Below, piece by piece: positions 960 through 41,533 of a stretch of DNA of 64,000 bases (positions are counted from its first letter, which is position 1; each line of letters begins with the position of its first letter). Made by a program: the position numbers and the translations under genes. The stretch is from Methanobacteriota archaeon (lineage in GTDB: Archaea; Thermoplasmatota; Poseidoniia; Poseidoniales; Poseidoniaceae), in assembly GCA_018650165.1 (NCBI GenBank), contig JABIGM010000050.1:46119-110118 (forward strand), read 5' to 3'. Under the pieces are notes generated by a model, which saw only the letters and a program-made list of their open reading frames with translations, was not told where the DNA came from and ran no database searches.

Positions 960-2196
960 TATTGTAGTTCACAAATTTGGCGGTTCCTGTCTTCGAGAAG
1001 GCAGTGATATCGACAGAATTGCTGAAATTATACAAAAAACACCAGGTAAGCCATTGATAGTAGTATCTGCCCTCTGGGGAATGACTGACCGGCTATACAG
1101 GGCAGCCAGAGAACCTCATTATGCTGGACGATTAGTTCAGGATGTCACATCTCAGCACCTACTGTTTGCACCAGGGCTAGATTCCGGCGATTTCAGTCAA
1201 TTATTCAACCAAGTAATTTCTGGTATTTCTATGGAATTGGTTAAATTATCAGGTGGTGAACCATCATTACGATCTGAAAATTTAATTTTAGCCGCAGGAG
1301 AAAGACTGAGCGCCCTTGCTGTTGCACATCGACTACGTTCGATGGGAATGAATGCTCATCCTGTTGGTGCAGAAGATATTGGGTTAAAACTCAAAGGAAC
1401 TGGACGTGCAAGTCAGATTGATATTGAAGCGTCATCCCAGAGTTTAAAGCGCGGGAATTTGATTGGCATTCCAATACTAACTGGATGGTTTGGTGAAGGG
1501 TCGGATGGTGATATTGCGATACTCTCAAGAGGAGGATCGGACCATTCTGCTGCTGCTTTTGCAAATTTAATGAATGCAAAGAAATTGATTCTTTGGAAAG
1601 ATATTGATGGAATAAAACAATTGAATCCAAGATGGGGAATCGATACTCCAGCGATACCTTACCTCGGCTATGGGCAAGCCGCTGAATTATCGATACATGG
1701 CACACCTGTGATTCACCCAGCGACAGTCACTCCACTCATTGAACAAGGAATTCCTCTTGAGGTTCGCAACATAAATGCTCCATTCGTAAAGGCACCTACA
1801 GTAATTGGACCGGACATCACCCCTTCATCTGCAATTGCAATTGGTTGTCATCCAGGCGTAGCAGTAATAACGCAAAGGAATTCAATCAATAGCGAATTAT
1901 TGGCCCGATTGGAACAGGCTGATGTTCACCCGTGGTTGATGAACTCAACACCAGAGGAAATGCGGATGATCATCCCTACGCATGAAATAAAGCATATCTC
2001 TGATTTGATAGAGGGCAGCATTGAGTACAAAACTGCAGTCATATCGATAATTGGTAGTTTTGATTATACCTCGATTGATTATGAGGTTGTATCTACTAAC
2101 GAATATGGAACTCGATATATCATAGAAACAAAGGACTTACATCAAGCCCTACGTAACTTGTATCAGTCCTTGTTTTCTCTCCAAGATTGCAAGTGA
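952..2196 (+). CDS. Aspartate kinase-like amino-acid kinase. The likely start is the internal Met 'MSDIVVHKFGG'. The track ORF begins at 859 and overlaps aroC.
   Basis: 'VHKFGGSCL...LIVVSALWGMTDRL' is the amino-acid-kinase N-terminal glycine loop plus the VVSA.G.TD motif. The C-terminal half is regulatory-like. The 8-bp overlap with the aroC stop suggests coupling. Confidence 0.6.
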   Translation: MSDIVVHKFGGSCLREGSDIDRIAEIIQKTPGKPLIVVSALWGMTDRLYRAAREPHYAGRLVQDVTSQHLLFAPGLDSGDFSQLFNQVISGISMELVKLSGGEPSLRSENLILAAGERLSALAVAHRLRSMGMNAHPVGAEDIGLKLKGTGRASQIDIEASSQSLKRGNLIGIPILTGWFGEGSDGDIAILSRGGSDHSAAAFANLMNAKKLILWKDIDGIKQLNPRWGIDTPAIPYLGYGQAAELSIHGTPVIHPATVTPLIEQGIPLEVRNINAPFVKAPTVIGPDITPSSAIAIGCHPGVAVITQRNSINSELLARLEQADVHPWLMNSTPEEMRMIIPTHEIKHISDLIEGSIEYKTAVISIIGSFDYTSIDYEVVSTNEYGTRYIIETKDLHQALRNLYQSLFSLQDCK

Positions 2197-3083
2197 GTTG
2201 GAAGGTCTAAGATGAAAAGACCGCCAACGATTATGAATACAAAGAGAGTACCTAGTGCCACTCCATAAACCGAAATCAATTCTACTGATTCTTCCATTCG
2301 AAGGGCGGTTTGTTCCGAGAATAGGCTAATGAAGGCTGGTAGAATTGTATTTACTGAAAGTACCAGCATTGCAAGCGTTCCAGCAATTAGTGGATTGATA
2401 ACTAATGAACGGTGGTATTTACCAATAATTTTCTTGACATTCATGACATAAACTTCACGGGTTCTGATAGAAGTATCAAGCATACTGAATCGGAGTACAC
2501 CATTAGATAGTTCGAAATACATTACAAGGAGGACGGCATAGATTACCACAAGAATAGTTAGCATCAATTCACTTTCCATAAATGCTTCACCAAACAAGTC
2601 TTGTGAAAATGAAACCTTTGAAGATGCAAATCTCATTACAGATAGGATGAATAAAACATAAGATACTAACAAGAATCTAGCATCTCTGAACATTGTGCCC
2701 CAGAATCCAGTTCCTACTGCACAGACTACAACCATTATTTGGAGTATACTTGCTACTGTCATTGAGCCTGTTACTGTAAACCAAATAGTTCCGACTGCAG
2801 GTGTAACGATGTAAGTTAGAATACCCAATGCGATGAGAACGCCATAGCACCCAAGTTGAAGGTTTTGCACCATCTTATCCGCAGGTAAGAATTTCATTTT
2901 TGGGACTAGGGGGCCACCCAATAAGCTCTCAATGAAAGTAGGAATCTCGACTGTTGGAATTGCATCCTTCGGGATTTCTCCTGAAGAAGAAGAGGTTCCT
3001 GCAAGCTTCTTTCTAGAAGGTGCAGAAGAGCGGACGGTTTTTCCGTCATATAGATGGGCTGTGTCACCGGACTTTGTCGCCAT
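2163..3083 (-). CDS. Polytopic membrane protein, the last gene of the MoxR operon.
   Basis: About 7 hydrophobic helices after a soluble N-terminal 60 aa. It sits directly downstream of the DUF58 gene with a 12-bp gap. Confidence 0.5.
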   Translation of the reverse strand: MATKSGDTAHLYDGKTVRSSAPSRKKLAGTSSSSGEIPKDAIPTVEIPTFIESLLGGPLVPKMKFLPADKMVQNLQLGCYGVLIALGILTYIVTPAVGTIWFTVTGSMTVASILQIMVVVCAVGTGFWGTMFRDARFLLVSYVLFILSVMRFASSKVSFSQDLFGEAFMESELMLTILVVIYAVLLVMYFELSNGVLRFSMLDTSIRTREVYVMNVKKIIGKYHRSLVINPLIAGTLAMLVLSVNTILPAFISLFSEQTALRMEESVELISVYGVALGTLFVFIIVGGLFILDLPTHLQSWRENKD

Positions 3084-3095
3084 AATATTCCCTCC

Positions 3096-4418
3096 TCAGA
3101 ATCCTCTTGCACCTGCTAGTGCGGTAGATAGAAGCATATCTGGCTCCCAATCCATGATGTTGACTCCCAAACTGCTCAGTTCGCTAATCAGTACATCTCT
3201 TTCGGTTTTCAGAACTTCATAACCAGTACGGTCGAGTCTCTTAGCATCGAATTCAAATTCGAGGCTTGAAGGTGAAAGTACAGTAACATCGAAATTACGA
3301 GCTCTGAAATCACGTAGTGCACTAATAATCGTAGGATCATCTTCTAAATTTGAAAGTACGATAATTGGACTTCCCTTATTGATATGCGGTAATATTCGGT
3401 TAACTACCACTTGAAGTGGTACGTTTCCACGAGCCATTGCGCCTGCTAATTTAGTTAGTATGACGTACAATTGTTTCTTACCAGTGTCACGGTCTACACT
3501 TACAACTTCATCACCGTAGGTGATAAGTCCAACCGAATCTCGTCGACCAAGGAAAAACTTAGCAAGACTAGCGGCCGCCCTTGTCGAGTAAACCAATGCA
3601 TTTCGTGAAACAGGACCTGTTTCGGAAACTGCACGTGAATCCACAATCAGAATGATATCACTGACTGCATCTCTCTCACGCTCATTGACCATTAATTTAC
3701 CACTACGGGCATATGCAGACCAGTTAATCGCTCGGAATGAATCTCCTTCGAAATACTCACGGAGTGAGTAAAACTCGGAACCAGGTCCTGGTTGACGGAT
3801 ATTTACCGCACCTGTGAAAATTTTCGGAACACGTGATTTGACGAATGTATCTTTCAATTCTTCCATCTTCGGGAACACAAGGAAGTCGTTGTAGACATGC
3901 AGCTCTTTTTCCTTGTGGAATAACCCGAATGGGTCTTGAACACGGACAGCAACCGGGCCAAGGCTGTAGAATCCTCTCAAGGGGCATTCGACTGTGTATT
4001 CGATGAAGGTTTCACGGCGTGGACCAAGTTCCATTAAGATGTAATTTGCACCATCTTTGATGCGCATTACTTCAGGTACTCGGTCACGTACTTCCAGAAT
4101 CTTTCCTAGTGCAGAGTGATTTTGCATACGCAAAGTCACTCCAACTTCACCATCTTCGAAAATTCGGGCACTAGAGAGTTTGCGCATTGCAGAGACATTA
4201 GAAAGAGCAACTCCTTCTTCACCTGTCCATTCATCAGCACGACGACCACTTGCAGATACATCTGCGTGGCTGCCGAATAATGCGGCCCATGTAAGGAATA
4301 CAAAGATTACCACAGCAATGGTAACCAGTTGAGAATTCCTCAAGGTTAGACCTAGCAAATACATTGCTACTGCCAGGGATCCCAGCATTGCACTCTTACG
4401 ACTCCACATGCTACGCAC
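3096..4418 (-). CDS. DUF58 family protein (VWA-like MoxR partner) with an N-terminal TM hairpin.
   Basis: Two N-terminal TM helices, then the DUF58 signature region 'YSLREYFEGDSFRAINWSAYARSGKLMVNERE'. It lies immediately downstream of MoxR. Confidence 0.7.
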   Translation of the reverse strand: MRSMWSRKSAMLGSLAVAMYLLGLTLRNSQLVTIAVVIFVFLTWAALFGSHADVSASGRRADEWTGEEGVALSNVSAMRKLSSARIFEDGEVGVTLRMQNHSALGKILEVRDRVPEVMRIKDGANYILMELGPRRETFIEYTVECPLRGFYSLGPVAVRVQDPFGLFHKEKELHVYNDFLVFPKMEELKDTFVKSRVPKIFTGAVNIRQPGPGSEFYSLREYFEGDSFRAINWSAYARSGKLMVNERERDAVSDIILIVDSRAVSETGPVSRNALVYSTRAAASLAKFFLGRRDSVGLITYGDEVVSVDRDTGKKQLYVILTKLAGAMARGNVPLQVVVNRILPHINKGSPIIVLSNLEDDPTIISALRDFRARNFDVTVLSPSSLEFEFDAKRLDRTGYEVLKTERDVLISELSSLGVNIMDWEPDMLLSTALAGARGF

Positions 4419-4445
4419 TCTCTCTATTTCCGATCATTAATTTAA

Positions 4446-5621
4446 TCAAACGGTTGGTACAGGTACTTCGCGTAAGATTGCTTGGATAACTTCACCAGGT
4501 TCTAGACCTTTGATCTGGTGTTCAGGCTTCAAGATAATTCTGTGTGCTAGAGCTAATTCTGCAACGGTCTTAATGTCATCAGGAGTGATGAAATCGCGAC
4601 CACGTAGAGCTGCTGCTGCGCGTGAAGTCTTCAGGAGAGCCTGAGAACCACGAGGTGAAGCGCCGACTAGAACACGAGGATCTTCACGGGTTCTTGTTAC
4701 AACTTCAACCATGTACATGCGTAGAGCTGGGTCGACATAAATGTCTTCACATGCTTGTTGCATAGCGATAACACGCTGTGGGTCTGTGATAACATCGACA
4801 TCGACGGCATCCTTTCCACGTTCAATACGACGGCGCAGAATTTCATCTTCATCTGCACGATCTGGGTAACCTACGCTCATCTTGAACAGGAAACGGTCAA
4901 GTTGTGCTTCAGGTAGTGGGTATGTTCCTTCTTGTTCGACAGGGTTTTGTGTTGCCATAACAATAAATGGCGCTGGGAGTTTGTGAGTGACTGTACCGAT
5001 AGTCACCTGCTTCTCTTGCATAGCCTCAAGCAAAGCAGCTTGAGTCTTTGGAGGAGCACGGTTAATCTCGTCAGCTAGTAGCAGGTTACAAAATAGTGGA
5101 CCTGGTTTGAAGGTAAATTCTCCCTTCTTAGCATCGTAGATGTTTGTACCGGTAATGTCTGCTGGTAGCAAATCCGGAGTAAACTGCACACGCTTGAAGT
5201 CACAACCTAACGCATCTGCGAAAGTATTGGTCATCAAAGTCTTAGCAAGTCCTGGATAATCTTCGAACAGTAGGTTACCGTTTGATAGAATATTGATCAG
5301 AACGTTGTCAATAACGTGTGCCTTACCGATAATTACCTTCTGGACTTCGGCGCTAATCGCTGACGATATCGCTCCGACGGCCTGAAGACGTTCACGGACC
5401 TCTGGGCTACTCTGGTGTTTAGGCTGTGCCTGTGCCGGGGCTGGTGCTGCGGGTGCAGGTGCTGCAGGGGCTGGGGCCGGTGCTGCTACTGGCATAGGTG
5501 CCGGTGCTGCAGGTGCAGGCGCTGGTGGCGCTGCTGGGGCCGGGGCCGGTGCTGGCGGTGCTGCTGGTGCAGGTGGTGCCGGCGCAGGGGGGGCTGCGGG
5601 TGGTGGTGGTGCTGGCTGCAT
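4446..5621 (-). CDS. MoxR-family AAA+ ATPase with a 65-aa N-terminal Pro/Ala low-complexity extension.
   Basis: 'VLLEDYPGLAKT', 'VQFTPDLLPADITG', 'LLADEINRAPPKTQAALLEAMQE', 'VMATQNP.E.EGTYPLPEAQLDRF' are the MoxR Walker A/B, sensor and arginine-finger regions. The N-terminus is (PA)n. Confidence 0.85.
   Translation of the reverse strand: MQPAPPPPAAPPAPAPPAPAAPPAPAPAPAAPPAPAPAAPAPMPVAAPAPAPAAPAPAAPAPAQAQPKHQSSPEVRERLQAVGAISSAISAEVQKVIIGKAHVIDNVLINILSNGNLLFEDYPGLAKTLMTNTFADALGCDFKRVQFTPDLLPADITGTNIYDAKKGEFTFKPGPLFCNLLLADEINRAPPKTQAALLEAMQEKQVTIGTVTHKLPAPFIVMATQNPVEQEGTYPLPEAQLDRFLFKMSVGYPDRADEDEILRRRIERGKDAVDVDVITDPQRVIAMQQACEDIYVDPALRMYMVEVVTRTREDPRVLVGASPRGSQALLKTSRAAAALRGRDFITPDDIKTVAELALAHRIILKPEHQIKGLEPGEVIQAILREVPVPTV
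5425..5620 (-). repeat. In-frame (PA)n / APAPAA coding low-complexity repeat at the MoxR N-terminus.
   Basis: DNA is GC-rich 'gctggggccggtgctgc' iterations. It translates to about 65 residues of Pro/Ala only. Confidence 0.8.
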
Positions 5622-5641
5622 GTCTTTTTTACCTCCTTAGG

Positions 5642-7222
5642 TTATTTCCCCCAAAGTCGAATTTGCTGCAAAATTTGCCTCAGTTCTTCGTTGGAGTATG
5701 AACGCTGTTGTGAATACAACAACTCAATCAGGCGTGGGTCCTTTACCATGGACTGGATTTCACCTGGTGTTTTCCTGGCCATTTCATCACGGGTCAGGTC
5801 GCTAACTTGGCGCACTTTGGCCATCATGGCCTCCCGCACGCGGGTAAGATATAGATTCGGATCTACTTTGTTTGGTCTTTCCCTGAATCTCGTAAGGTCG
5901 AATACATGGCGCCAATTTTCTTTCTCTGGAACCACCATAATTGCAATAGATAGCAAAGCCATCAGATTCAGTACAATCAACCACTTCAACAAGGTATCAC
6001 TTGTTAACATTACAATTGCACCCATCGCCTCTGTGAATGGAGATGAAATCGCTGAAGTTATGTGGCGTGATTCATCGAATACAATGTAGAAGTTTTTATT
6101 TTCACGAGTTATTGTCAACGAAATTTCGTCATTCTCGTGCTCCATCATATCCCTGATTAGTGTGACAAAATAATCTTTATTGCCTTTCCAATCAGTTTCG
6201 CTCCCATCTTGGGAAGAAAGTAATGATTCCCAGCATGACCTTCCGTCATAGTGGATTGAATCACATTGTTGCTTACCAGTAACTTCTGCATCTGCAATAT
6301 CCCAAAGATGGTTAGCAAATACGGAGTGGTCGGAAATGAATACAATACTTCCAGTTACATCGACTTCTCCTTCTCGAATACCCTTGACTTGGTCAATAGT
6401 TTCGATTCCAGGATAATCCATACGTACAATTAGCCCGGTGTTATTACCTCCGAGAATCGGATTGTCTTTGTCGTTTGCGTCCATGTTTTCTCTAGCTATG
6501 AAAGCAGAGCCTGAAGCATGAGCCAGTACCTTCACATTACGTGAACTATCTTCATTATCTAGAACCTGAATCGCAGTAGGCCTGTGGAAGAGAATCGGTA
6601 GCGCACAATCATCGAATTCACCTGCGTTTGAAAGGTTAGAATCGCTGCAGTACGGTCGCCTCTCATACTGGTCTTCCCATACTTTGTTTACTCCAGCAAC
6701 TGCCCATAACTTTCGTGCATCTGGCGCCTCTTGTACACCAGTTTGGCTAGCTACCTCGTAGTATCTGTTTGGATCGACGACTGGGGCATCAAAAAATTTC
6801 ACATCGAACTTATCTGCAACTGTTTGAGCATTGGTAGAGTTTGATGCGATTATGACCTTGCCACCGTTCTGAGTGACGAAATCATAAATTGCATCAGCTT
6901 CAGAATTATCAAATGGTTTCTCAGGTGCTGCAATGATTAGCATTGTGCGGTGAGGTTCCCTCCAATCATTCACCAACATTGGAGTAGACATTGTATTTGC
7001 AATAACATAATCCAGTCCGTCATCACCAAGATCTCCTCTCATGGTAGATATCTGCTGATACTGAAGATTAGTATCCTCACTATCTGTAACATAAGCAGAA
7101 TACACGGTCTCCTTACCAGAAGCTGTTACAATGATGACAGTTGTTGAAAGTAGCATGGCTGCGACGAAGCCAACTAGTAACCAAGTTTCTAACTTGACCC
7201 CTGTTGTCTCTTCATCAGCCAT
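5642..7222 (-). CDS. DUF4350-like bitopic membrane protein, the first gene of the MoxR operon.
   Basis: N-terminal TM, a roughly 400-aa extracytoplasmic domain, a C-terminal TM and a cytoplasmic tail. Its position and architecture match the DUF4350 partner in the conserved DUF4350-MoxR-DUF58-membrane gene order. The family assignment rests on context only. Confidence 0.4.
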   Translation of the reverse strand: MADEETTGVKLETWLLVGFVAAMLLSTTVIIVTASGKETVYSAYVTDSEDTNLQYQQISTMRGDLGDDGLDYVIANTMSTPMLVNDWREPHRTMLIIAAPEKPFDNSEADAIYDFVTQNGGKVIIASNSTNAQTVADKFDVKFFDAPVVDPNRYYEVASQTGVQEAPDARKLWAVAGVNKVWEDQYERRPYCSDSNLSNAGEFDDCALPILFHRPTAIQVLDNEDSSRNVKVLAHASGSAFIARENMDANDKDNPILGGNNTGLIVRMDYPGIETIDQVKGIREGEVDVTGSIVFISDHSVFANHLWDIADAEVTGKQQCDSIHYDGRSCWESLLSSQDGSETDWKGNKDYFVTLIRDMMEHENDEISLTITRENKNFYIVFDESRHITSAISSPFTEAMGAIVMLTSDTLLKWLIVLNLMALLSIAIMVVPEKENWRHVFDLTRFRERPNKVDPNLYLTRVREAMMAKVRQVSDLTRDEMARKTPGEIQSMVKDPRLIELLYSQQRSYSNEELRQILQQIRLWGK

Positions 7223-7376: not shown

Positions 7377-8303
7377 TTAACGACGAATTGTGGCAGCAAA
7401 CATTACCGTTAAAATACAAATAAAGGCTGAAATTGCAGGAAGTGAATTTTCTTTAACTTCAAAATCAGAAGAGTCCGTACTATCATTTCCTTCATCTTCT
7501 TCTTTGACCAAAACGTCTGGCGCATCAACATTAAATTCCAATTCACCCTCATACGAGATGCCGTTTCCTTCACTGGTAATAGTTACAATAAATTTGCAGG
7601 TTTTATCTGGGTGGCTAGAAGGAGCAAGTAATTTGACTGTACCTGCTTTGCTAACAGATATCGCTTCGCCTGTGTTCAAGGCTGTTATTTGTTCAAAGTT
7701 CATCTGAGGGCAACCTTTGAACGAAAGCCCTATTTTCGTTAAAGCATCGTCTACATTACCAATATTTAGTACACGGATTGTTACTTCTTCATGGGTACCA
7801 GATTTTATTTCAGGCCCTTTACCATTAACCACTGGTTCAAATTCAATTTCAAATCCAAAGACTGATGAAAATTGAACTTGCTTTTCTATTTCTTTTTCAC
7901 CAATACTCTGATCTCCAAAGAGAAGGGTCGCTTTCAAAGTAACAATATCGTAATGAGACTGCCTCGCATCTATCAATTCGCCATTACTATTCAATCCACT
8001 TCCTGAGATCATTAATTCAAATGTCTCATTCGAGTTTGCCGAAACCGATACTTTCCCAGGGTCATCGACAATGAATAAATCATTGGTCTCTATTTCAAAA
8101 TCAAGGTCTGCAGGCACAGGCCGAGAATTGTCCACCCAGAATTTGATAACTAATTCAAAATTATAATTTGAATCTAATTCCATAATCATAGGTTCTTTAT
8201 CGCTATCCCATCCAATTTCCCAATCAGGGACACCTACATCTTGGGCACTTACAACAGGGCTGAGTATTGCCAATAGCAAAATAGATGAGATGATTTTCTT
8301 CAT
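7377..8303 (-). CDS. Secreted protein with a cleavable signal peptide and a C-terminal hydrophobic anchor plus RR. The likely start is 'MKKIISSILLLAILSPVVSA'; the track ORF extends to 8333.
   Basis: Signal peptide, then a beta-rich soluble domain, an acidic S/T/D linker, and 'LPAISAFICILTVMFAATIRR' at the C-terminus. It starts 4 nt after the CoxM stop. Confidence 0.5.
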   Translation of the reverse strand: MKKIISSILLLAILSPVVSAQDVGVPDWEIGWDSDKEPMIMELDSNYNFELVIKFWVDNSRPVPADLDFEIETNDLFIVDDPGKVSVSANSNETFELMISGSGLNSNGELIDARQSHYDIVTLKATLLFGDQSIGEKEIEKQVQFSSVFGFEIEFEPVVNGKGPEIKSGTHEEVTIRVLNIGNVDDALTKIGLSFKGCPQMNFEQITALNTGEAISVSKAGTVKLLAPSSHPDKTCKFIVTITSEGNGISYEGELEFNVDAPDVLVKEEDEGNDSTDSSDFEVKENSLPAISAFICILTVMFAATIRR

Positions 8304-8307
8304 TTTA

Positions 8308-9252
8308 TCACTCCTCACATGCTCTTTTGACAAGTATTTTGATCATATTTCTTCGATACCTTGGCGGTAAAGCAGTATTGTTAACCGGTTTCGTTGAATC
8401 GTAGATTGCATTACAAATTGCTTTAACATCGCCATTAGAGATTGCTACTTCCTCATCATGTCTGCGAGGAATACTTTCCAAAGCAGTTGTTGCAACTCTT
8501 AGTGTACTTCTGTCACCCTTCTTCCATGCGGCTGCTGCGCCAGCTTCTGGAAAATCCCATGACTCTCTAACTCGTAACTTGCGATAGGCTCCAATCCAGT
8601 CCTCTACATCATCGGGTAGAGTTACTTTCAGCATAAATTCACCAGGCTGCAGAATATTTCGCGTCATTCCATCTAGTTGATAGAACTCATTTACCAATAC
8701 ATTTCGAGGGCCATTTGGGCCAATCAGATGTGCTGTAGCATTCAAAACCATCAACGTTGGAGCGATATCTCCTTGGTAAGTAGCGACACACAACTCATTT
8801 TGGTTAGGAATCACTCGGCAATCAGAGCCTGTTCCACAATCACACTTGTGGCACCAATCAATACTACTTCGCCACTCTTCTGTTTGATTATACCAGAAAC
8901 ATCGAGTATCCAAGCAAAGATTTCCGCCAAGAGTGGCGTTTCTTCGAATTAGCGAGGAAGCCACTTTACTAGCGGCTTCCGCTACAAGTGGGTGAGCATT
9001 GCCACCTTCTGCGAGGTCATGTAATCGTGCCATACAGCCTATTTCGGTCAGAGAAATAGAATCGATTCCTGCGATTTTTGCGAGTGAAATCACATGAGGT
9101 TTAGTATTAATGTGCCATTTGTAATTTGGAATTAAATCGGTGCCTCCTGCGACCCAATCAAATTCTTCACCTGCTTCTAACAGTCCAGCGGCTATTACAC
9201 AGGCATCTTCCACAGATTGAGGATGGTGTAATTCAAACGGTGGCATCAGCAT
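8308..9252 (-). CDS. Molybdenum hydroxylase FAD-binding (medium, CoxM/XdhB-like) subunit with a Cys-rich insertion.
   Basis: 'FELHHPQSVEDA...AGGTDLIP' is the FAD-binding PCMH motif, and 'ATLGGNL' also matches. A 45-aa insert carries 7 Cys: 'CLDTRCFWYNQTEEWRSSIDWCHKCDCGTGSDCRVIPNQNELC'. Confidence 0.8.
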   Translation of the reverse strand: MLMPPFELHHPQSVEDACVIAAGLLEAGEEFDWVAGGTDLIPNYKWHINTKPHVISLAKIAGIDSISLTEIGCMARLHDLAEGGNAHPLVAEAASKVASSLIRRNATLGGNLCLDTRCFWYNQTEEWRSSIDWCHKCDCGTGSDCRVIPNQNELCVATYQGDIAPTLMVLNATAHLIGPNGPRNVLVNEFYQLDGMTRNILQPGEFMLKVTLPDDVEDWIGAYRKLRVRESWDFPEAGAAAAWKKGDRSTLRVATTALESIPRRHDEEVAISNGDVKAICNAIYDSTKPVNNTALPPRYRRNMIKILVKRACEE

Positions 9253-12053
9253 TACTTACCATCCTCCATTTTTCTTTGCTCGATTTTAGTCCAAGCACTA
9301 CCTGCAAGGCCAAGCCCCTCTAATTGTTCAGAGGTAGGCCTCACTGCGATTTTCCAATCTCCATCTTGGTCCTCGGGGGGAACGGTTGGGTCAAATCCAA
9401 ATAATACTCCATTGATGTAAGGGTCGGTATCTTCTGAACGCTGACGGCGACTATCTCTTCCTCCGTGTTGTGAAGAACGCTGAACAATTTTTTGCTGTAA
9501 CTCAGAGAAATCTAAACGTGGCGTAGGTAGGTCTTGGGCCTCAGCAATGTCTTCTCTCTTCATTTTCTTTGCAATTGCTGCCCAAACCTTGTCTGGTGTC
9601 AAAGGTAAATCATTGATTCTGATTCCAATTGCATCGTAAACTGCATTTACCACTGCAGGGAGAATTGGTAGAAGTGGGCCTTCTCCTGCTTCTTTAGCCC
9701 CGAATGGCCCTTCTGGGTCACATGATTCAATTATTATTGGAGTTACATTTGGCATTTCGTGAACACTTGGGATCTTGTAATCAAGTAAATTTGGATTCTG
9801 TAGATGACCGGTTCTCCCATACACCATTTGTTCTGAAAGCACCTGACCCAGACCCATATGGCAAGAACCGATGATTTGCCCTTCTACTGCGAGTGGATTC
9901 AGTGCTTTACCACAATCATGAGCGGCCCAAACATCTGTACATTTGATGAGTCCTGTTTCAACATCAACATCAACTTCGGCAACATAGGCTGAAAACGAAT
10001 ATGCAGGAGCAAGGCCCGCTGCTGCACCTTTGTGAACTCCTCCCATCGGCGGTGTTCTGTACGCACCACTAGCAATTAGCGCACCTTTGTCCTCTTGTGA
10101 TTTATGCAATGCCTCGAGATAAGAAACTCCAATCGCGGGGTCTCTTTTACTGTAAATTCTCCTGTCGTTCAGTATCAAATATTCCGCCGGCATATCCAAT
10201 ATGCCACTCGCCGCATCCACCAATTGCTCACGAATTTCGAGTGCTGCACTGATGGCAGCATTCGCATTCATGAATGTGACTCGAGATGAATATGAGCCTA
10301 AATCAACTGGACTAGTATCGCTTTCATGGGAGCGAACATGTATCATTTCCAATGGGAGTGCTAACACTTCTGCAACCACTTGGGCTATAGCAGTAGTAGA
10401 CCCTTGTCCAATATCTGCAGCACCGGTATGAACTGTAACGCCTCCATCCATATCAATCTGGATATGTACGGTCGCATGAGGGAATTTATTTGGATCCCAA
10501 TGAATAGGAAGTCCAGACCCTGATATGAAGAAACCACATCCGATTCCGATTCCCTTTCCTAAAGGTAATTTCCTGAACTTAGAATCCCACTGGCTACCTT
10601 CGCGCACTCGCTCTAATGCTTGCCGCATACCATTCGATGTAATTCTGAATCCAGTAATTGTTTTTGAATGTGGAGGTAATAAATTTGCTAACCGTAAATC
10701 GATAGGATCTACTTGTAATTTTTCAGCCAAATCATCCATACCTACTTCGATTGCACATCTAGTGTTCACAGCACCATGGCCGCGCATTGCTCCACTAGCC
10801 GGTTTGTTTGTCCAAACACGAGCACCGGTATAATGGAAGGAACCTAACTCGTATGGAGCGGTTGCTAAAACACCATTGTAGTAAGAAGTGACGTGGCCAA
10901 AAGACGCAAATCCGCCTCCGTCAATCAAAGCATCAATCTCAAATCCGGAAATTCTCGCATCCTCATCTGCAAACATTTGTACTTCGATGTGAGAGGGATG
11001 GCGTCCACGATTTACCCAAAAGACCTCTTCTCTGTCAAAAGTAATTCTAACTGGGCGCCCCGCTTTTCTGGCTAAAATCGCCGCACACATTTCATGCGGG
11101 AAAGGATCTGACTTTCCACCAAATCCACCGCCAACAAATGTTCGTATCACGTTGACCTGGTGCATTGGGACATCTAGAACAGTCGCTAGAGCTCTGTGTG
11201 CATAGTGCGGTACTTGCTGGGGGGTGTACAGTTGTAGACGCCCGTTTGAATCCCAATGAGCAACAACAGCATGGGGTTCGGTGAAGCCATGATTGACACC
11301 CATGAATTTCCATTTGCCATGGTGTGTTGCTCTGGCTTGTTCTAATTTGGAACGGTCACCAAACTCTTGGAAAACTCTTTTTTGAACATTGGTGGAGCCA
11401 ATGTGATATTGCCCGCGCCAATGGATTGGATCATCAACGTCCAATAATCCCTTTTTGGGGTCATGAACCGCATCTAGAACTTCATATTCCACTTCGATTA
11501 ATGCCGCCGCTTCACGAGCAGTTGGTTCGTCAATTGCAGCAACACAAGCCACAAGGTCCCCTACATGCCTGACTTTTTCAACAGCCATTGCGTGTTCATC
11601 TTTTGTCACCGGTAGTACACCAAAGCGCTGCGGTGCATCAGCACCTGTAGACACCGCTAAAACGCCCGGTAGTGCTTCGGCTTTGGAAGTATCAATACTC
11701 TTAACCTTAGCATAATGATGAGGTGAACGAACAATTCTTCCAATTATTTCATTTGGCAATCGCACATCATCACCATACCATGCCTGGCCCGTAACTTTGG
11801 CATTACCATCAACTAAAGGAGTTCTTTTTCCAACAGATGTTCCAGTCCTGTATTTATCATGAAGATGTTGACCTGCCGGCTGTGATTCATTTCCGCCTTC
11901 AACTTCTGGGATGAAATCCATGTCTCTATCGGCCATTTCGGGCCTTGAACCACCTGAACCGGGAGGATTAAATTTAATTTTACCTGCAACACGCTTTCCA
12001 TCAACACGAACATCAGTGTTGCTTCCAGGTTGTTGAACATAGCCATCAGTCAT
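9252..12053 (-). CDS. Molybdenum hydroxylase large (CoxL/XdhA-like) molybdopterin-binding subunit with N- and C-terminal extensions.
   Basis: a/b hammerhead region 'GKRTPLVDGNAKVTGQAWYGDD', 'GGGFGGKSD', 'GQGSTTAIAQVVAEVL', 'NPLAVEGQIIGSCHMGLGQVL'. There is about 120 aa of extra C-terminal sequence. Confidence 0.85.
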   Translation of the reverse strand: MTDGYVQQPGSNTDVRVDGKRVAGKIKFNPPGSGGSRPEMADRDMDFIPEVEGGNESQPAGQHLHDKYRTGTSVGKRTPLVDGNAKVTGQAWYGDDVRLPNEIIGRIVRSPHHYAKVKSIDTSKAEALPGVLAVSTGADAPQRFGVLPVTKDEHAMAVEKVRHVGDLVACVAAIDEPTAREAAALIEVEYEVLDAVHDPKKGLLDVDDPIHWRGQYHIGSTNVQKRVFQEFGDRSKLEQARATHHGKWKFMGVNHGFTEPHAVVAHWDSNGRLQLYTPQQVPHYAHRALATVLDVPMHQVNVIRTFVGGGFGGKSDPFPHEMCAAILARKAGRPVRITFDREEVFWVNRGRHPSHIEVQMFADEDARISGFEIDALIDGGGFASFGHVTSYYNGVLATAPYELGSFHYTGARVWTNKPASGAMRGHGAVNTRCAIEVGMDDLAEKLQVDPIDLRLANLLPPHSKTITGFRITSNGMRQALERVREGSQWDSKFRKLPLGKGIGIGCGFFISGSGLPIHWDPNKFPHATVHIQIDMDGGVTVHTGAADIGQGSTTAIAQVVAEVLALPLEMIHVRSHESDTSPVDLGSYSSRVTFMNANAAISAALEIREQLVDAASGILDMPAEYLILNDRRIYSKRDPAIGVSYLEALHKSQEDKGALIASGAYRTPPMGGVHKGAAAGLAPAYSFSAYVAEVDVDVETGLIKCTDVWAAHDCGKALNPLAVEGQIIGSCHMGLGQVLSEQMVYGRTGHLQNPNLLDYKIPSVHEMPNVTPIIIESCDPEGPFGAKEAGEGPLLPILPAVVNAVYDAIGIRINDLPLTPDKVWAAIAKKMKREDIAEAQDLPTPRLDFSELQQKIVQRSSQHGGRDSRRQRSEDTDPYINGVLFGFDPTVPPEDQDGDWKIAVRPTSEQLEGLGLAGSAWTKIEQRKMEDGK

Positions 12054-12070
12054 TGTAACACCTCATTTGA

Positions 12071-12658
12071 CTAATTTGGACCTGAAGGATGGGGGTCAGA
12101 GTGGGCTGAACTCGCAGGCTTTGCCGGTGAAGCATCTCCTCTATGGATCTCAGCCGCTGCTTGGATTGATTGAATTATTTGCTGATATCCTGTACAGCGA
12201 CAAAGATTACCTTCGATAGCAGTTGATATCTCTGCATCGGTAGGATTAGGATTCTTATCGAGCAGTGCTTGAGAGGAAATTAAGAAACCAGGCGTACAAA
12301 AGCCACATTGGGAACCTCCATGCTCTGCAAAACATTGCTGAATCGGTGCGAGGTGAGCGCCATCAGCAAGCCCTTCAACTGTCGTGATTGTGCTGCCTTG
12401 TACATCTTGAGCCATGGTAAGGCAAGATAAACGTGGTTGGCCATCTACCATCACTGCGCAGCAACCACATGTCCCCATGTCACAACCGCGCTTCACTCCG
12501 AGGCATCCAACTTTATCTCTAAGGACATCTAGTAAGACTGCATTAGAAGGGGCTAACACCTCTTGAGGTTGCCCATTAACCTCTGAGTTCCAAACTTTAG
12601 TATGTGCCGCTGGAATCATAGAAACATGCTCATCACCTACCATCTGAGACACCAACAA
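12071..12658 (-). CDS. Molybdenum hydroxylase [2Fe-2S] small (CoxS-like) subunit. The start is probably the internal Met at about 12619.
   Basis: 'CDMGTCGCCAVMVDGQPRLSCLTMA' is the plant-type 2Fe-2S site. 'GSQCGFCTPGFLIS...LCRCTGYQQI' is the second 2Fe-2S site. Confidence 0.85.
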   Translation of the reverse strand: MLVSQMVGDEHVSMIPAAHTKVWNSEVNGQPQEVLAPSNAVLLDVLRDKVGCLGVKRGCDMGTCGCCAVMVDGQPRLSCLTMAQDVQGSTITTVEGLADGAHLAPIQQCFAEHGGSQCGFCTPGFLISSQALLDKNPNPTDAEISTAIEGNLCRCTGYQQIIQSIQAAAEIHRGDASPAKPASSAHSDPHPSGPN

Positions 12659-14250: not shown

Positions 14251-16185
14251 ATGAACAACTACAAGCAAATTTTCAGTTTATTCGGAATTGCAATTCTTTT
14301 GGCGCCCTTGGCTGTTGCGACTGTTCCAGTTTCAACATCAACTAATGGTGATGAAGAGCCATTAGGATGGTGGACTGAGACAACTGTTGACCGAAATAAA
14401 AACAAGGTTGGAGACATGGTTGAGCTTCATATCGACAATCCTATTTTCTTAGATGAAGAAAATACATTACCTTTGATTATCGACTTTCACTATACACCTG
14501 GCCAAGATGAAATAGACATGCTAAGGGTTAGTGTAGATTATCAACATCAATTCATTCTCCACGGAATCGATGCACTAGCAGGAAGAGTCCCAGTAACTGA
14601 ATTGCTTACACTGAGAGACCTTCCGGGAGTTGTAATGGTCGAATTAGATGGTGTCCTCACTATTGCAAATGCAGATGCTCGTGCTGGTCATGGCGTTGAT
14701 ATGGCATTCGAAGAAACCGGATATGATGGCTCGGGAACAACTGTTGCTATTATTGACACAGGCCTAGATGGCAATCATACCAGTATTGATGATCAAGACG
14801 ATGACCCGGTGACTGATGACCCTAAAATTCTGGCATTCTATGATGCAGTTGCTAATGCTGGTAATACCAATGGCACTGATTTCCCATACGATGACCATGG
14901 ACACGGTTCACACTGTGGAGGAACAACTGCAGGAACTGGAGCTCCTACCTACGAGCATGTAGGGATGGCACCTCAAGCCCATCTAGTTGGCGTCAAAGTT
15001 CTCGATGGAGGTGGCTCAGGGTCTTTCGCTGGAGTTATGGCGGGGATGCAATGGACTATCGATACAATGCACCAATACAATACAAGAGCCGCTTCTATGA
15101 GCCTAGGTGGCCCAGGTGGAATCGAATGGACTTCATCAGAAGAAGACAGTGTTAATCGCCAAGCCAATGAAATGGTACGCGCCGGTATTGCGCTATTTAT
15201 TGCAGCCGGTAATACTGCATTTAGTGCCCAAATCGGAACTCCTGGTTCGGCTGAAGATGTAATCACCGTTGGTGCTTTAGACAAGAATACTGCTATTGCA
15301 ATTTATTCGAGCCAAGGCCCAACTGAAGAAGGGCGTGTCAAACCTAACATCGCATACATGGGTAGTGACATTATGTCTGTTGCAGCAAATACTGGCGACC
15401 AATACACCGGTATGAGCGGTACAAGTATGGCTACACCGGGAGCCGCTGGTGTTGGAGCATTGATGTTACAGGCGAACCCCGATTTATCTCCATTCGATAT
15501 TAGAAATATTATGCAAGAAACCGCTACATATCGACAATGTCATTACATGGGTGCAAATGAGCCTTGTCCTGAAGATTTGATCCCTAAAAATCGGCAAAAC
15601 AATGTTTATGGCCACGGCCACGTCAATGCTCTTGAATCGGTAATAGAGGCTGCTGAATATCAGCAGCAATGGAACTTTGATCGCAATATTACCCTGAATG
15701 TAAGTAATTCATTGAATTCAAATGGCCATGTATACTTAGGCCCTGGAGATTCGATTGAGATAAGATTGAACCAAGGTGTAGACACCGTCCAATGGATGAG
15801 CAATGATTTGAGAGATTCATGGTCTAACATTCATTCATACGACCACGGCAGCACGGTTATTCTCGAATATGATGAAATTGTTCACGAACTCGAACATCTC
15901 CCCGGAATTATGCTAGAAGGCAATCACACACTATCGATGAGAGGACTAGAGGGGACTAGTTCAAGTCCTTTGATTTCTATCGACATTATGTTAGGTGAAA
16001 ATATCCCAGTAGAAGATCCCGCAGAAGGTTCAACGAATTTCGTGCTATATGGTTCTGTAATTGCGGCCATATTACTTACAATAATCATTCTTGCGGCGAC
16101 ATTAACCAATAGGAATGAATCTGAATTCAACACTAGTGACGACTCTGATATCCAAGAAGTGGTGGATGCTGAAATAATCTCCTAG
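14251..16185 (+). CDS. Subtilisin-like (S8, halolysin-like) serine protease with a signal peptide, a C-terminal TM anchor and an acidic tail.
   Basis: Catalytic triad motifs 'VAIIDTGLD' (Asp), 'HGHGSHCGGTTAG' (His), 'GMSGTSMATPGAAG' (Ser). Signal peptide 'ILLAPLAVATVP'. C-terminal TM 'VLYGSVIAAILLTIIILAATL'. Confidence 0.85.
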   Translation: MNNYKQIFSLFGIAILLAPLAVATVPVSTSTNGDEEPLGWWTETTVDRNKNKVGDMVELHIDNPIFLDEENTLPLIIDFHYTPGQDEIDMLRVSVDYQHQFILHGIDALAGRVPVTELLTLRDLPGVVMVELDGVLTIANADARAGHGVDMAFEETGYDGSGTTVAIIDTGLDGNHTSIDDQDDDPVTDDPKILAFYDAVANAGNTNGTDFPYDDHGHGSHCGGTTAGTGAPTYEHVGMAPQAHLVGVKVLDGGGSGSFAGVMAGMQWTIDTMHQYNTRAASMSLGGPGGIEWTSSEEDSVNRQANEMVRAGIALFIAAGNTAFSAQIGTPGSAEDVITVGALDKNTAIAIYSSQGPTEEGRVKPNIAYMGSDIMSVAANTGDQYTGMSGTSMATPGAAGVGALMLQANPDLSPFDIRNIMQETATYRQCHYMGANEPCPEDLIPKNRQNNVYGHGHVNALESVIEAAEYQQQWNFDRNITLNVSNSLNSNGHVYLGPGDSIEIRLNQGVDTVQWMSNDLRDSWSNIHSYDHGSTVILEYDEIVHELEHLPGIMLEGNHTLSMRGLEGTSSSPLISIDIMLGENIPVEDPAEGSTNFVLYGSVIAAILLTIIILAATLTNRNESEFNTSDDSDIQEVVDAEIIS

Positions 16186-40732: not shown

Positions 40733-41533
40733 TCACAGCGAATCAATGTATTCGAGTACTATTTTTTCTTCGAAAATATCTTCTTGAAAAGAGAGAGTTG
40801 GGCGTGTAATCGATAGTAATGTTACCTCGCCGCCAGCGTTAGGAAATCCTACGATTATCACTGTTGCTAGAGTCGTTTCAAATCCATCCCTCTTTACATT
40901 AAATCGGGCTATAAATTGAGTATCTTCACCGTACTGGTGGTTTCCTTCTGTTTCGACCTCTTCTAACCAAAACGCATCAGGATCAATACTAAAACCACTA
41001 ATCATTGAATTCATTACATCTATTGATTGACGCATTCTTTTATCATGCATTCCAAGCATAACCCCTAATGTTACACTGGACGAATCTTGTGACCAAGAGC
41101 AGAATGTGTGCGGTGTTCTTGTGCTGAGTATTCCAATCACTGCGCCATCATGAAGCCAAGTATATTGTTCACTGGCGGGCCAGGAAGGGGCATGTGGATT
41201 TTCAGTAGTAATTGGCTCACCCCACTCTTCTGCTCCACTTGGAGTTGAGACCGGATACAATGCAAATAAATTTAATAAAATTAGCAAAACAAGACTTGTT
41301 GCAATTCTTCGGCTCCGATACCTCACCCATTCTTCTCTACCTGCGGGACTAACTAACGAAATTATAATCGCTAAAGGTAGGATAACAAAAATCCCCCATG
41401 GAATTATCCAGAGAAGTAAAACCCCTACTGATAATGAAATCATTGAGGTTTTGTCAAAATCTTCACTTCGCCATTTGAGGAGTCCAAACAAGCATGCCAC
41501 AAGGGCTGTAGATGCGAGAAGACCGCCTAACAC
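40733..41533 (-). CDS. Membrane protein with 3-4 N-terminal TM helices and a C-terminal extracytoplasmic domain. Hypothetical.
   Basis: Hydrophobic helices in the first 100 aa. No motif recognised. Confidence 0.35.
   Translation of the reverse strand: MLGGLLASTALVACLFGLLKWRSEDFDKTSMISLSVGVLLLWIIPWGIFVILPLAIIISLVSPAGREEWVRYRSRRIATSLVLLILLNLFALYPVSTPSGAEEWGEPITTENPHAPSWPASEQYTWLHDGAVIGILSTRTPHTFCSWSQDSSSVTLGVMLGMHDKRMRQSIDVMNSMISGFSIDPDAFWLEEVETEGNHQYGEDTQFIARFNVKRDGFETTLATVIIVGFPNAGGEVTLLSITRPTLSFQEDIFEEKIVLEYIDSL

What the first reader, a model, noticed from the sequence alone, without database searches (positions are those of the whole stretch)
7377..7450. Shared C-terminal 'LP[AS]I[SG]xF - hydrophobic - RR' tail on two secreted proteins: a candidate lineage-specific sorting signal
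Two secreted proteins end in strikingly similar tails, each preceded by an acidic Ser/Thr/Asp-rich linker:
- the 318-aa protein (7377..8303, minus strand) ends 'SLPAISAFICILTVMFAATIRR';
- the 638-aa protein (43294..45210) ends 'GLPSIGMFATIISMLGAALLLRRD'.

By established knowledge, this layout is the same as the archaeosortase/exosortase substrates PGF-CTERM and PEP-CTERM: an S/T linker, a short signature, a TM helix and basic residues. The signature here (LPxIxxF) is different from PGF or PEP.

This suggests a distinct sortase-like processing and lipid-anchoring system for surface proteins in this lineage.
Basis: partly seen in the sequence, partly recalled or inferred. Interest (0 to 1): 0.6.

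Follow-up and report, generated by a model that had tools for sequence, protein, structure and literature searches.

The report
Shared C-terminal anchor tail, marine archaea
Two exported proteins of a Marine Group II archaeon (Poseidoniales) end in the same short, strongly conserved 'Leu-Pro + membrane helix + Arg-Arg' tail, which looks like an undescribed local version of the sorting signals archaea use to fix proteins to their surface; the enzyme that would read it could not be looked for.

Summary
ORF 7377..8303/8333(-) ends SLPAISAFICILTVMFAATIRR and ORF 43294..45210(+) ends GLPSIGMFATIISMLGAALLLRRD. Each has an N-terminal signal peptide and a disordered acidic Ser/Thr stalk. The window is from Ca. 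Poseidoniaceae (Marine Group II).

The tail is not chance:
- Leu-Pro is invariant in 78 species-level orthologues of the 638-aa family and in 73-76 of 76 clusters of the 318-aa family, while the stalk drifts freely.
- The same tail sits on at least two further unrelated exported families: TSP3-repeat glycoproteins and a thioredoxin-like protein.
- Synonymous sites between families are randomised, so selection acts on the protein.
- A control family in the same genomes keeps a C-terminal helix but conserves neither LP nor RR.

The true consensus is LP[SA]Φ[GS]-x10-[AS]A-x2-3-[RK][RK].

No curated model covers it. PGF-CTERM is the only recurrent, sub-threshold match, and its alignment register puts P-[SA]-Φ-[GS] on P-G-F-G.

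No archaeosortase, sortase, rhomboid or CPBP gene was seen in the window or in about 1.5 Mb of related loci. These are syntenic, and whole genomes could not be searched.

Verdict: a new, lineage-specific PGF-CTERM-like anchor and probable sorting domain. Cleavage and lipidation are inferred, not shown.

The parts
7377..8303 (-). Gene for the 308-aa exported protein (318 aa if read from TTG 8333). It comprises a signal peptide, two Ig-like beta-sandwich domains, a disordered acidic stalk and the C-terminal tail. It is the first gene of a conserved cluster: this gene, DUF4350, MoxR, DUF58 and a 6-TM protein.
   Evidence: ORF. 79 homologues of 304-335 aa. AlphaFold2 mean pLDDT 85, strands 28-260, helix 290-307. 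Only generic Ig-like matches in the PDB. Synteny kept at 52% identity.
7446..7523 (-). Acidic Ser/Thr/Asp/Glu-rich stalk of the 308-aa protein (about residues 261-286).
   Evidence: Sequence. pLDDT below 50 for residues 266-288.
7428..7442 (-). Signature LPAIS (residues 288-292 of the 308-aa protein).
   Evidence: L in 73 of 76 and P in 76 of 76 clusters; A, I and S at 3.5-4.0 bits. S287, L288 and P289 are nearly invariant in alignment A4.
7380..7436 (-). Hydrophobic helix AISAFICILTVMFAATI, overlapping the signature, followed by the terminal Arg-Arg. The stop codon is 7377..7379.
   Evidence: Helix 290-307 in the model. A at +17 in 76 of 76 and RR in 75 of 76 clusters.
43294..45210 (+). Gene for the 638-aa exported protein. 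It comprises a signal peptide, a poorly modelled N-terminal region, several beta-sandwich domains, a disordered stalk and the C-terminal tail. It is the third gene of a conserved operon: ABC ATPase, ABC-2 permease, this gene.
   Evidence: ORF. 530 homologues. Found in 138 species genomes, and the 80 fetched are nearly all labelled Poseidoniales, Poseidoniaceae, Poseidonia or generic archaeal MAGs. Model. The permease lies directly upstream in the fetched loci.
45082..45138 (+). Acidic Ser/Thr/Asp stalk of the 638-aa protein (about residues 597-615).
   Evidence: 1-2 bits per column across 78 orthologues. pLDDT below 50 for residues 599-623.
45139..45153 (+). Signature LPSIG (residues 616-620).
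   Evidence: L and P invariant in 78 of 78 anchored orthologues. Variants are LPAPG, LPSIG, LPSVS, LPSLS, LPSLG and others; 82 of 83 members keep LP.
45148..45207 (+). Hydrophobic helix IGMFATIISMLGAALLL followed by Arg-Arg-Asp. The stop codon is 45208..45210.
   Evidence: Helix 619-637. A+8, T+9, L+14, A+16 and A+17 are conserved.
41623..43247 (+). ABC transporter ATPase (41623..42432) and ABC-2 permease (42429..43247), immediately upstream of the 638-aa gene.
   Evidence: Pfam ABC_tran and ABC2_membrane_2. Conserved adjacency in related loci.
2163..7222 (-). Genes downstream of the 308-aa gene: DUF4350-like 526 aa (5642..7222), MoxR AAA+ ATPase (4446..5621), DUF58 (3096..4418) and a 306-aa 6-TM protein with no family (2163..3083).
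   Evidence: Pfam. NCBIfam gave nothing. Same order in L169-L171.

Best explanation
The two tails are copies of one conserved, Poseidoniales-restricted C-terminal domain of the tripartite sorting-signal kind. Its closest known relative is PGF-CTERM.

Shown:
- Each protein carries an N-terminal signal peptide, a folded beta-sandwich ectodomain and a disordered acidic Ser/Thr stalk.
- The tail then follows: an invariant Leu-Pro with small / hydrophobic / small residues (LP[SA]Φ[GS]), a hydrophobic helix of 15-17 residues with a near-invariant Ala at +17, two basic residues, and at most four more residues.

Follows from established topology rules: after Sec export the helix stops transfer. The ectodomain is then held on the outer face of the membrane with the basic residues inside.

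Inferred:
- The signature and helix are kept across at least four unrelated ectodomains under protein-level selection, while an ordinary C-terminal anchor in the same genomes drifts. The tail is therefore read by one shared membrane factor.
- That factor is most likely a membrane-embedded sorting enzyme of the archaeosortase type, which would cut at or near the Leu-Pro signature and replace the helix with a lipid anchor, as ArtA does for PGF-CTERM proteins in Haloferax.
For: - Tails as quoted, and the only two such tails in the window.
- Lineage is Ca. Poseidoniaceae, from source names of homologues and genome titles.
- L and P are invariant at 4.32 bits in 78 species-level orthologues of the 638-aa family that are only 44-77% identical overall. 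The stalk has 1-2 bits. The 318-aa family shows the same picture.
- An exhaustive profile search of 1.84 billion representatives gave 37 hits, of which 34 lie within 7 residues of a C-terminus. They fall into the two window families plus TSP3-repeat proteins (P0220, P0225, P0233, P0235) and a thioredoxin-like protein (P0234). TSP3 carriers were confirmed on 10 further metagenome contigs.
- Between the unrelated 638 and TSP3 families, 14-17 of 24 tail residues are identical, while third codon positions agree in only 4-8 of 14-17 identical-residue codons.
- Controls: a secreted family of about 780 aa in the same loci keeps a C-terminal helix but conserves neither LP nor RR at 37-52% identity. 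Three other type-I proteins in the window lack the signature and have cytoplasmic tails of 25-78 aa.
- PGF-CTERM-containing models are the only recurrent sub-threshold hits. Their register places P-[SA]-Φ-[GS] on P-G-F-G.
- Models show a disordered stalk and a terminal helix.
- Background on ArtA / PGF-CTERM processing: PMC6098224.
Against: - No candidate enzyme was found: no Exosortase_EpsH/archaeosortase, sortase, rhomboid or CPBP hit in the window or among the multi-TM proteins of the fetched loci. Those loci are syntenic and cover a small part of a genome, so this is weak evidence.
- Only four carrier families pass a stringent threshold.
- All curated cut-offs are failed: PGF_CTERM gives 9-18 bits against a cut-off of 24.5.
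- Haloferax ArtA needs the PGF order, since PGF to PFG blocks processing (PMC6098224). A PSI/PAI signature would therefore need a co-evolved enzyme.
- Both window proteins are encoded with membrane machineries (an ABC-2 exporter; a MoxR/DUF58 cluster). A permanent helix anchor would serve those perfectly well.
- No paper links any sortase-type enzyme to Marine Group II.
Confidence: 0.5

Rival explanations
1. It is a permanent, unprocessed C-terminal transmembrane anchor (type-I topology). The Leu-Pro is a helix N-cap at the membrane interface. The Ala-Ala and Thr positions are helix-packing contacts, and the basic pair simply obeys the positive-inside rule. No cleavage or lipidation takes place.
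For: - Both window proteins are encoded with membrane complexes that they could dock to through a helix: an ABC-2 permease directly upstream, and a MoxR/DUF58/6-TM cluster downstream.
- No sorting enzyme was found in any sequence examined.
- Only four carrier families were seen at the stringent threshold.
- All curated sorting-signal cut-offs are failed.
- C-terminal helix anchors that stay in place are known in archaea, for example Sulfolobus SlaB (PMC6098224).
Against: - Partner-specific packing cannot explain why adhesin-like TSP3 proteins and a thioredoxin-like protein carry nearly the same helix and signature as the ABC-linked protein, with randomised synonymous sites.
- A true plain anchor in the same genomes (the ~780-aa family) and three type-I proteins in the window show none of this conservation.
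- The most conserved positions are at the outer boundary (LP), not in the helix core.
Confidence: 0.38
2. It is a recognition site for a different membrane protease: a rhomboid ('rhombosortase'-like), a CPBP/Rce1-like 'myxosortase', or an undescribed family. This enzyme would release or re-anchor the ectodomains, so the system would be a new signal/enzyme pair rather than an archaeosortase one.
For: - The cross-family conservation is the same as above.
- Small residues and a helix-breaking Pro at the outer end of the helix suit intramembrane proteases.
- Haft's work shows that tripartite signals pair with several unrelated enzyme families (bioRxiv 10.1101/2023.06.07.544157).
- The signature fails the PGF model.
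Against: - There is no Gly-Gly signature and no invariant Cys in the signature. The Cys of the 318-aa family lies inside the helix at +9 and is absent from the other families.
- There are no hits to the GlyGly-CTERM or CGP-CTERM models, and a single weak one to MYXO-CTERM.
- No such enzyme gene is seen near any carrier.
Confidence: 0.08
3. It is a sortase (LPXTG-type) cell-wall sorting signal cleaved by a classical sortase.
For: - The tail begins L-P-x-x-G, followed by a hydrophobic stretch and basic residues.
- One orthologue reads LPATG (L080).
- One of 19 tails gave a weak LPXTG_anchor hit, E = 0.033.
Against: - Position 4 is Thr in 1 of 83 members and is usually I/V/L/P. Position 5 is Ser in the whole 318-aa family.
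- The signature abuts the helix without a spacer, which is typical of signals read by deeply membrane-embedded enzymes rather than by sortases (bioRxiv 10.1101/2023.06.07.544157).
- These archaea have no peptidoglycan acceptor (established knowledge).
- No sortase was seen.
Confidence: 0.03
4. It is a chance resemblance between two hydrophobic C-termini, or an annotation artefact.
For: Hydrophobic tails of low complexity can look alike, and the motif was defined after the fact.
Against: - 0.007 occurrences are expected at that position in the window.
- LP is invariant across 78 and 76 independent orthologues.
- Profile hits in 1.84 billion proteins are almost all C-terminal and from the same lineage.
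Confidence: 0.01

Closest known systems
PGF-CTERM sorting domain (TIGR04126 / PF18204), processed by archaeosortase A (ArtA)
   Same: - Found in archaea (Euryarchaeota sensu lato).
- Lies at the extreme C-terminus of Sec-exported proteins.
- Has a Ser/Thr-rich stalk, a Pro-led signature abutting the helix with no spacer, an Ala/Gly/Leu-rich helix of similar length, and an Arg-Arg end.
- It is the only recurrent, sub-threshold HMM match, and it is in register: P on P, [SA] on G, [ILV] on F, [GS] on G.
- It also anchors ABC-transporter extracellular subunits (TIGR04281 gave weak hits).
   Different: - Gly-Phe of the signature is replaced by [SA][ILVP]. Only 2 of 83 members read PGV.
- An invariant Leu precedes the Pro.
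- Scores are 9-18 bits against a cut-off of 24.5.
- The stalk is more acidic.
- No ArtA has been shown in this lineage, and no processing data exist.
LPXTG cell-wall sorting signal and sortases (TIGR01167)
   Same: It has an L-P-x-x-G/S start, a hydrophobic segment and a basic tail. One natural variant reads LPATG.
   Different: Thr at position 4 is not conserved. There is no spacer between motif and helix. There is no peptidoglycan, no sortase was seen, and the HMM match is negligible.
Other lineage-specific tripartite signals: PEP-CTERM/exosortase, GlyGly-CTERM/rhombosortase, CGP-CTERM and MYXO-CTERM/myxosortases, and the Heimdall-CTERM and GVDTG-CTERM models of NCBIfam
   Same: It shares the general architecture and a many-proteins-to-one-signal logic restricted to one lineage. 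TSP3-repeat proteins of other lineages fetched here end in PEP-CTERM-like, Cys-containing or Gly-rich tails at the same place (L100, L126, L127, L109, L140).
   Different: None of their signatures (PEP, GG, invariant Cys) is present. None of these models matches the window tails at E up to 10, apart from a single weak MYXO-CTERM hit.
Permanent C-terminal transmembrane anchors of archaeal surface proteins (e.g. Sulfolobus SlaB)
   Same: A single C-terminal helix holds an exported ectodomain on the membrane (PMC6098224).
   Different: Such anchors carry no signature shared between families. The ~780-aa control family here illustrates that.

Membership tests
PGF-CTERM (TIGR04126 / PF18204) | Tripartite layout at the extreme C-terminus: signature, hydrophobic helix, basic cluster. 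| tested here: met
   Terminal helices in the models. 0-4 residues follow the basic pair.
PGF-CTERM (TIGR04126 / PF18204) | Pro-Gly-Phe signature. | tested here: not met
   Pro is invariant, but Gly-Phe is replaced by [SA][ILVP]. The motif census is LPAPG 22, LPSIG 15, LPSVS 10 and so on; only 2 of 83 read LPGVS.
PGF-CTERM (TIGR04126 / PF18204) | Score at or above the curated cut-off (24.5 bits for TIGR04126; 18.8 bits for PF18204). | tested here: not met
   13.9 and 12.0 bits for the 638-aa tail and nothing for the 318-aa tail. 5 of 19 tails match at best E = 0.0096. The best of 8 further tails scores 18.4 bits.
PGF-CTERM (TIGR04126 / PF18204) | Ser/Thr-rich, presumably glycosylated, region just upstream. 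| tested here: inconclusive
   The stalks are rich in D, E, S, T, N and G, and are disordered. They are more acidic than typical, and glycosylation cannot be tested.
PGF-CTERM (TIGR04126 / PF18204) | Archaeosortase A (TIGR04125) encoded in the same genome. | not testable with these tools
   None in the window or the fetched loci. No whole Poseidoniales genome could be read, and no archaeosortase seed sequence was available.
PGF-CTERM (TIGR04126 / PF18204) | C-terminal helix removed and lipid attached in vivo. | not testable with these tools
   This needs proteomics or genetics. The organisms are uncultured.
LPXTG sortase signal (TIGR01167) | L-P-x-T-G pentapeptide. | tested here: not met
   Thr at position 4 occurs in 1 of 83 members (L080, LPATG). 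Position 5 is Ser in the 318-aa family. An HMM hit appears in 1 of 19 tails, at E = 0.033.
PEP-CTERM (TIGR02595) / exosortase | Pro-Glu-Pro signature and a model match. | tested here: not met
   No PEP is present, and no TIGR02595 match at E up to 10.
Cys-containing signals (CGP-CTERM, MYXO-CTERM) / myxosortases | Invariant Cys in the signature. | tested here: not met
   There is no Cys in the signature. The Cys of the 318-aa family is at +9 inside the helix and is absent from the 638-aa and P0234 tails. One weak MYXO-CTERM hit in 19 tails.
GlyGly-CTERM / rhombosortase | Gly-Gly-rich signature, and a rhombosortase in the genome. | tested here: not met
   No Gly-Gly signature and no model match. 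Presence of the enzyme is not testable.

The most novel reading that the evidence does not exclude
Poseidoniales, among the most abundant archaea of the surface ocean, use their own C-terminal protein-sorting system. In this reading the 'LP[SA]Φ[GS]-CTERM' signal is read by a dedicated enzyme that is either a very divergent archaeosortase or a membrane protease family not yet linked to sorting. It would mark a definable set of surface proteins: adhesin-like TSP3 glycoproteins, transporter accessory subunits and redox proteins.
Probability: 0.2. Interest if true: 0.7.

Novelty: new variant of a known kind. Interest (0 to 1): 0.45.

Why it matters
Marine Group II archaea are uncultured, globally abundant degraders of surface-ocean organic matter. 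Almost nothing is known about how their cell surface is built.

A conserved C-terminal tag would give a simple sequence rule for predicting which proteins are displayed on the cell. It would provide a handle, by phylogenetic profiling, for finding the enzyme that reads it. It would also offer a natural experiment on how far the PGF signature of archaeosortase substrates can drift.

If the tail turns out to be only a permanent anchor, the finding is still a useful annotation rule, but not a new system.

Tried and rejected
- **Curated sorting-signal models.** NCBIfam and Pfam on whole proteins and on 27 tails gave nothing above cut-off.
- **Sorting enzyme in the window.** Every multi-TM ORF was scanned. 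They are a Na/Ca exchanger, aquaporin, MFS transporter, FTR1, ABC-2 permease and DUF58, plus three orphans (306 aa, 266 aa, 1344 aa) with no archaeosortase, sortase, rhomboid or CPBP signal.
- **Sorting enzyme in related DNA.** 80 species-level loci (1.3 Mb) around the 638-aa gene gave 15 multi-TM clusters, none archaeosortase-like by inspection. These loci are syntenic, so the negative says little. Loci around the 318-aa, TSP3 and P0234 genes also gave none.
- **Third protein-database search, with a tail profile.** It returned only fragments of 75 aa or less from the known families. Two earlier attempts failed on parameter limits.
- **Metagenome scan with the TSP3 family.** Most of the 80 loci were unrelated TSP3 proteins from soil and sediment. 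Only L089-L099 carry the tail.
- **Viral contig scan for the tail DNA pattern.** It gave 3 internal chance matches in phage proteins.
- **Fold search.** The afdb50 library was unavailable. The PDB search of the 308-aa model gave only generic Ig-like hits.
- **Literature.** No paper connects archaeosortase, sortase or exosortase with Marine Group II / Poseidoniales. Haft 2012 is not held.
- **Rejected hits.** P0206, P0226 and P0232 are repeat-driven false positives. P0218, a lipobox N-terminus joined to a 638-type tail, is probably a chimeric or frameshifted call. P0247, an 'LPGFG' tail on a 932-bp contig, is itself below the PGF_CTERM cut-off and of unknown origin.
Full report
**1. Observation**

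The minus-strand ORF ending at 7377 terminates in ...DFEVKENSLPAISAFICILTVMFAATIRR. The plus-strand ORF 43294..45210 terminates in ...SAEESGLPSIGMFATIISMLGAALLLRRD.

The first ORF is 318 aa from TTG 8333 and 308 aa from ATG 8303. The shorter form matches the identical database protein P0001 and the length range of its homologues.

A six-frame scan finds no other real ORF in the window with a hydrophobic stretch plus basic pair at the very C-terminus.

The strict pattern LP[SA][ILV][SG] occurs twice in the 20,795-aa window proteome, and both occurrences are these tails. About 0.5 occurrences are expected anywhere and 0.007 at that position.

Both proteins begin with signal-peptide-like hydrophobic segments.

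**2. Organism and gene context**

Source names of homologues (Candidatus Poseidoniaceae, Poseidoniales) and the titles of 80 species-level genome loci place the window in Marine Group II archaea.

The 308-aa gene follows three genes of a molybdenum-hydroxylase cluster, a 4-nt gap after the FAD-subunit gene. It opens a conserved run: this gene, DUF4350, MoxR AAA+, DUF58 and a 6-TM orphan. The order is kept at 52% identity.

The 638-aa gene is the third gene of a conserved operon after an ABC ATPase and an ABC-2 permease.

AlphaFold2 models show the following:
- The 308-aa protein has a signal helix, two confident Ig-like beta-sandwiches (residues 28-260), a disordered stalk (266-288) and a terminal helix (290-307).
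- The 638-aa protein has beta-sandwich domains (218-594), a disordered stalk (599-618) and a terminal helix (619-637).
- Foldseek against the PDB gives only generic Ig-like matches.

**3. Conservation within each family**

Among 83 members of the 638-aa family from different species, some only 44-47% identical overall, 82 keep Leu-Pro. The pentapeptide varies as LPAPG, LPSIG, LPSVS, LPSLS, LPSLG, LPSIS and so on.

Information content, anchored on LP, is as follows:

| Position | Bits | Residues |
|---|---|---|
| L+1, P+2 | 4.32 | invariant |
| +3 | 3.0 | S/A |
| +5 | 3.4 | G/S |
| +8 | 4.05 | A |
| +9 | 3.9 | T |
| +16 / +17 | 3.5 / 3.9 | A / A |
| 25 upstream stalk positions | 1.0-2.8, mostly below 2 | variable |

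The basic pair lies at +21/+22.

The 318-aa family (76 clusters) shows L in 73 of 76, P in 76 of 76, A+17 in 76 of 76 and RR in 75 of 76.

The real consensus is LP[SA]Φ[GS]-x10-[AS]A-x2-3-[RK][RK], followed by 0-4 residues.

**4. Spread across unrelated proteins**

A profile of 19 tails was run without a word filter against 1.84 billion representative proteins. It gave 37 hits at E ≤ 0.001:
- 34 place the match within 7 residues of the C-terminus.
- 3 are internal repeat artefacts.

By BLAST of the N-terminal parts, the 34 are orthologues or fragments of the two window families plus two unrelated families:
- **TSP3-repeat, sequon-rich exported proteins** (P0220, P0225, P0233, P0235), ending [SA][LIV]PSIG[ML]LATSLC[LM]LGAA.L.RRD.
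- **A 302-aa exported protein with a CxxC motif** (P0234), ending DSLPSISAITSIMVVLFAAMARKS.

Ten further metagenome contigs carry TSP3 proteins with the same tail.

Between the 638 and TSP3 families, 14-17 of 24 tail residues are identical. Third codon positions agree in only 4-8 of the 14-17 identical-residue codons. The likeness is therefore held by selection on the peptide and is not the trace of a recent DNA transfer.

**5. Controls**

- Three other type-I membrane proteins of the window (an S8 subtilase, a 1342-aa protein and a 2168-aa FG-GAP protein) have no LP signature and carry cytoplasmic tails of 25-78 aa.
- A secreted family of about 780 aa, encoded beside a FecCD-type permease in the fetched loci, also ends in a single helix. 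At 37-52% identity it conserves neither a signature nor the basic pair; examples are ...FLPLFGILST...NRRLVS...SFLSTIAVL...VRDQDGD and ...SISFALTSISLL...FWRDDDV.

An ordinary anchor in this lineage therefore drifts, and the LP tail does not.

**6. Comparison with known signals**

No curated model passes its cut-off.
- The 638-aa tail scores 13.9 bits on TIGR04126 (cut-off 24.5) and 12.0 bits on PF18204 (cut-off 18.8). The 318-aa tail scores nothing.
- Of 19 tails, 5 touch PGF_CTERM, 6 touch a PGF-CTERM-anchored ABC binding protein model and 3 touch a haloarchaeal S-layer glycoprotein model. There are single weak hits to LPXTG, NPXTG and MYXO-CTERM.
- Eight more variants score at most 18.4 bits.

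The local alignments cover helix plus RR. Extending their register puts the tail's Pro on profile position 6. That position holds the P of PGF when an 'LPGFG' fragment (P0247) is aligned over the full model. [SA] then falls on G, [ILV] on F, and [GS] on the following G.

So the signature has the same physico-chemical pattern as P-G-F-G: Pro, small, hydrophobic, small. Two orthologues even read P-G-V.

LPXTG is a poorer fit. Thr occurs once in 83 members, Ser replaces Gly in one whole family, and there is no spacer before the helix (for the spacer rule).

PEP, Gly-Gly and invariant-Cys signatures are absent.

**7. What could not be done**

The decisive test is a sorting enzyme that co-occurs with the tail. 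It needs whole genomes, or at least an archaeosortase seed, and neither was reachable.
- The window and all fetched loci contain no Exosortase_EpsH, sortase, rhomboid or CPBP protein.
- The literature held here has nothing on such enzymes in Marine Group II.
- The negative is uninformative, because the loci are syntenic copies of two neighbourhoods.

**8. Interpretation**

Shown:
- This is a real, homologous, lineage-restricted tripartite C-terminal domain.
- It sits on at least four unrelated exported protein families.
- It is under strong protein-level constraint that a plain anchor does not need.

Follows from topology rules: the tail anchors the ectodomains on the outer face of the membrane.

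Inferred:
- The constraint comes from one shared reader, most plausibly an archaeosortase-type enzyme that would cleave near LP and attach a lipid, as ArtA does for PGF-CTERM proteins (PMC6098224).

I put about 0.5 on a processed sorting signal. Within that, archaeosortase-type is more likely than another enzyme. I put about 0.38 on a permanent anchor, with the remainder on other proteases or a sortase.

The finding is a new variant of a known kind and is moderately interesting. It gains weight from the ecological importance of these organisms and the near-total ignorance of their cell surface.

Noticed in passing
window 16246..20280 (+): A 1344-aa protein with about 18 predicted membrane helices and an acidic C-terminal region. 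It has no Pfam or NCBIfam match at all. It lies next to an S8 subtilase (14251..16185), and the same pairing (a 1378-1387 aa orphan beside an S8 peptidase) recurs in L169 and L171.
   Followed up: partly
window 45247..46398 (+): A 383-aa protein made of repeated RanBP2-type zinc fingers (WDCPxCxxxNFxxRxxCxRCG), separated by Arg/Asp/Gly-rich low-complexity spacers. It lies directly after the 638-aa gene. The homologue in L006 carries Pfam Zn_ribbon_RanBP. This is an unusual architecture for an archaeon.
   Followed up: no
window 8308..12658 (-) and 2163..7222 (-): The 308-aa tail-bearing gene sits between a three-gene molybdenum hydroxylase set and a MoxR / DUF58 set. The hydroxylase genes (2Fe-2S, MoCo-binding and FAD-binding subunits) were assigned by synteny with L169. 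The arrangement resembles the cox gene clusters, where a MoxR-like CoxD and a VWA-type CoxE mature the enzyme. Start and stop are 4 nt apart from the FAD-subunit gene.
   Followed up: partly
window 2163..3083 (-) and 40733..41533 (-): Two conserved membrane proteins with no family: 306 aa with 6 TM, the last gene of the MoxR cluster, and 266 aa with 3-4 TM plus a soluble domain, divergent from the ABC operon. The second recurs in 27 related loci.
   Followed up: partly
L057 3288..5606, L015 3608..5965, L016 3605..5998, L052 3220..5574 and others: A secreted family of about 780 aa beside a FecCD-type ABC permease. It has a fast-evolving C-terminal helix anchor and lacks the LP signature. It was used here as an internal control.
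   Followed up: yes
L080 5064..7085: One orthologue of the 638-aa family reads ILPATG at the signature, a literal LPXTG motif. L044 and L052 read LPGVS, the closest natural approach to PGF.
   Followed up: partly
L011/L015 (MAG PBGS01) and L019/L021 (MAG PAQE01): Two MAGs each hold two copies of the ABC-2 permease plus 638-aa gene pair on different contigs. This could be a true duplication or mixed strains in a bin.
   Followed up: no
L100, L109, L126, L127, L140 (metagenome contigs of other lineages): Contigs fetched through the TSP3 repeat carry proteins ending in PEP-CTERM-like (VPEPATL..., VPEPGTL...), Cys-containing (GCDSVPGS..., GLCPTGAT...) or Gly-rich (GSGGGGS...) tripartite tails. On L127 the tail directly follows a TSP3 repeat. 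So the same ectodomain module takes different sorting tails in different lineages.
   Followed up: partly
window 20283..21506 (-): A 407-aa protein starting MSRALLLAILMASASLAGC, a lipobox-type N-terminal lipid-anchor signal. The same genome therefore uses at least three ways of holding proteins at the surface: a lipobox, helix anchors with cytoplasmic tails, and the LP tail.
   Followed up: no
P0218 (125 aa, database protein): A small protein with a lipobox-like N-terminus (…LALTSC) joined to a 638-type tail that is 93% identical to that of L030. It is probably a frameshifted or chimeric gene call rather than a fifth carrier family.
   Followed up: partly
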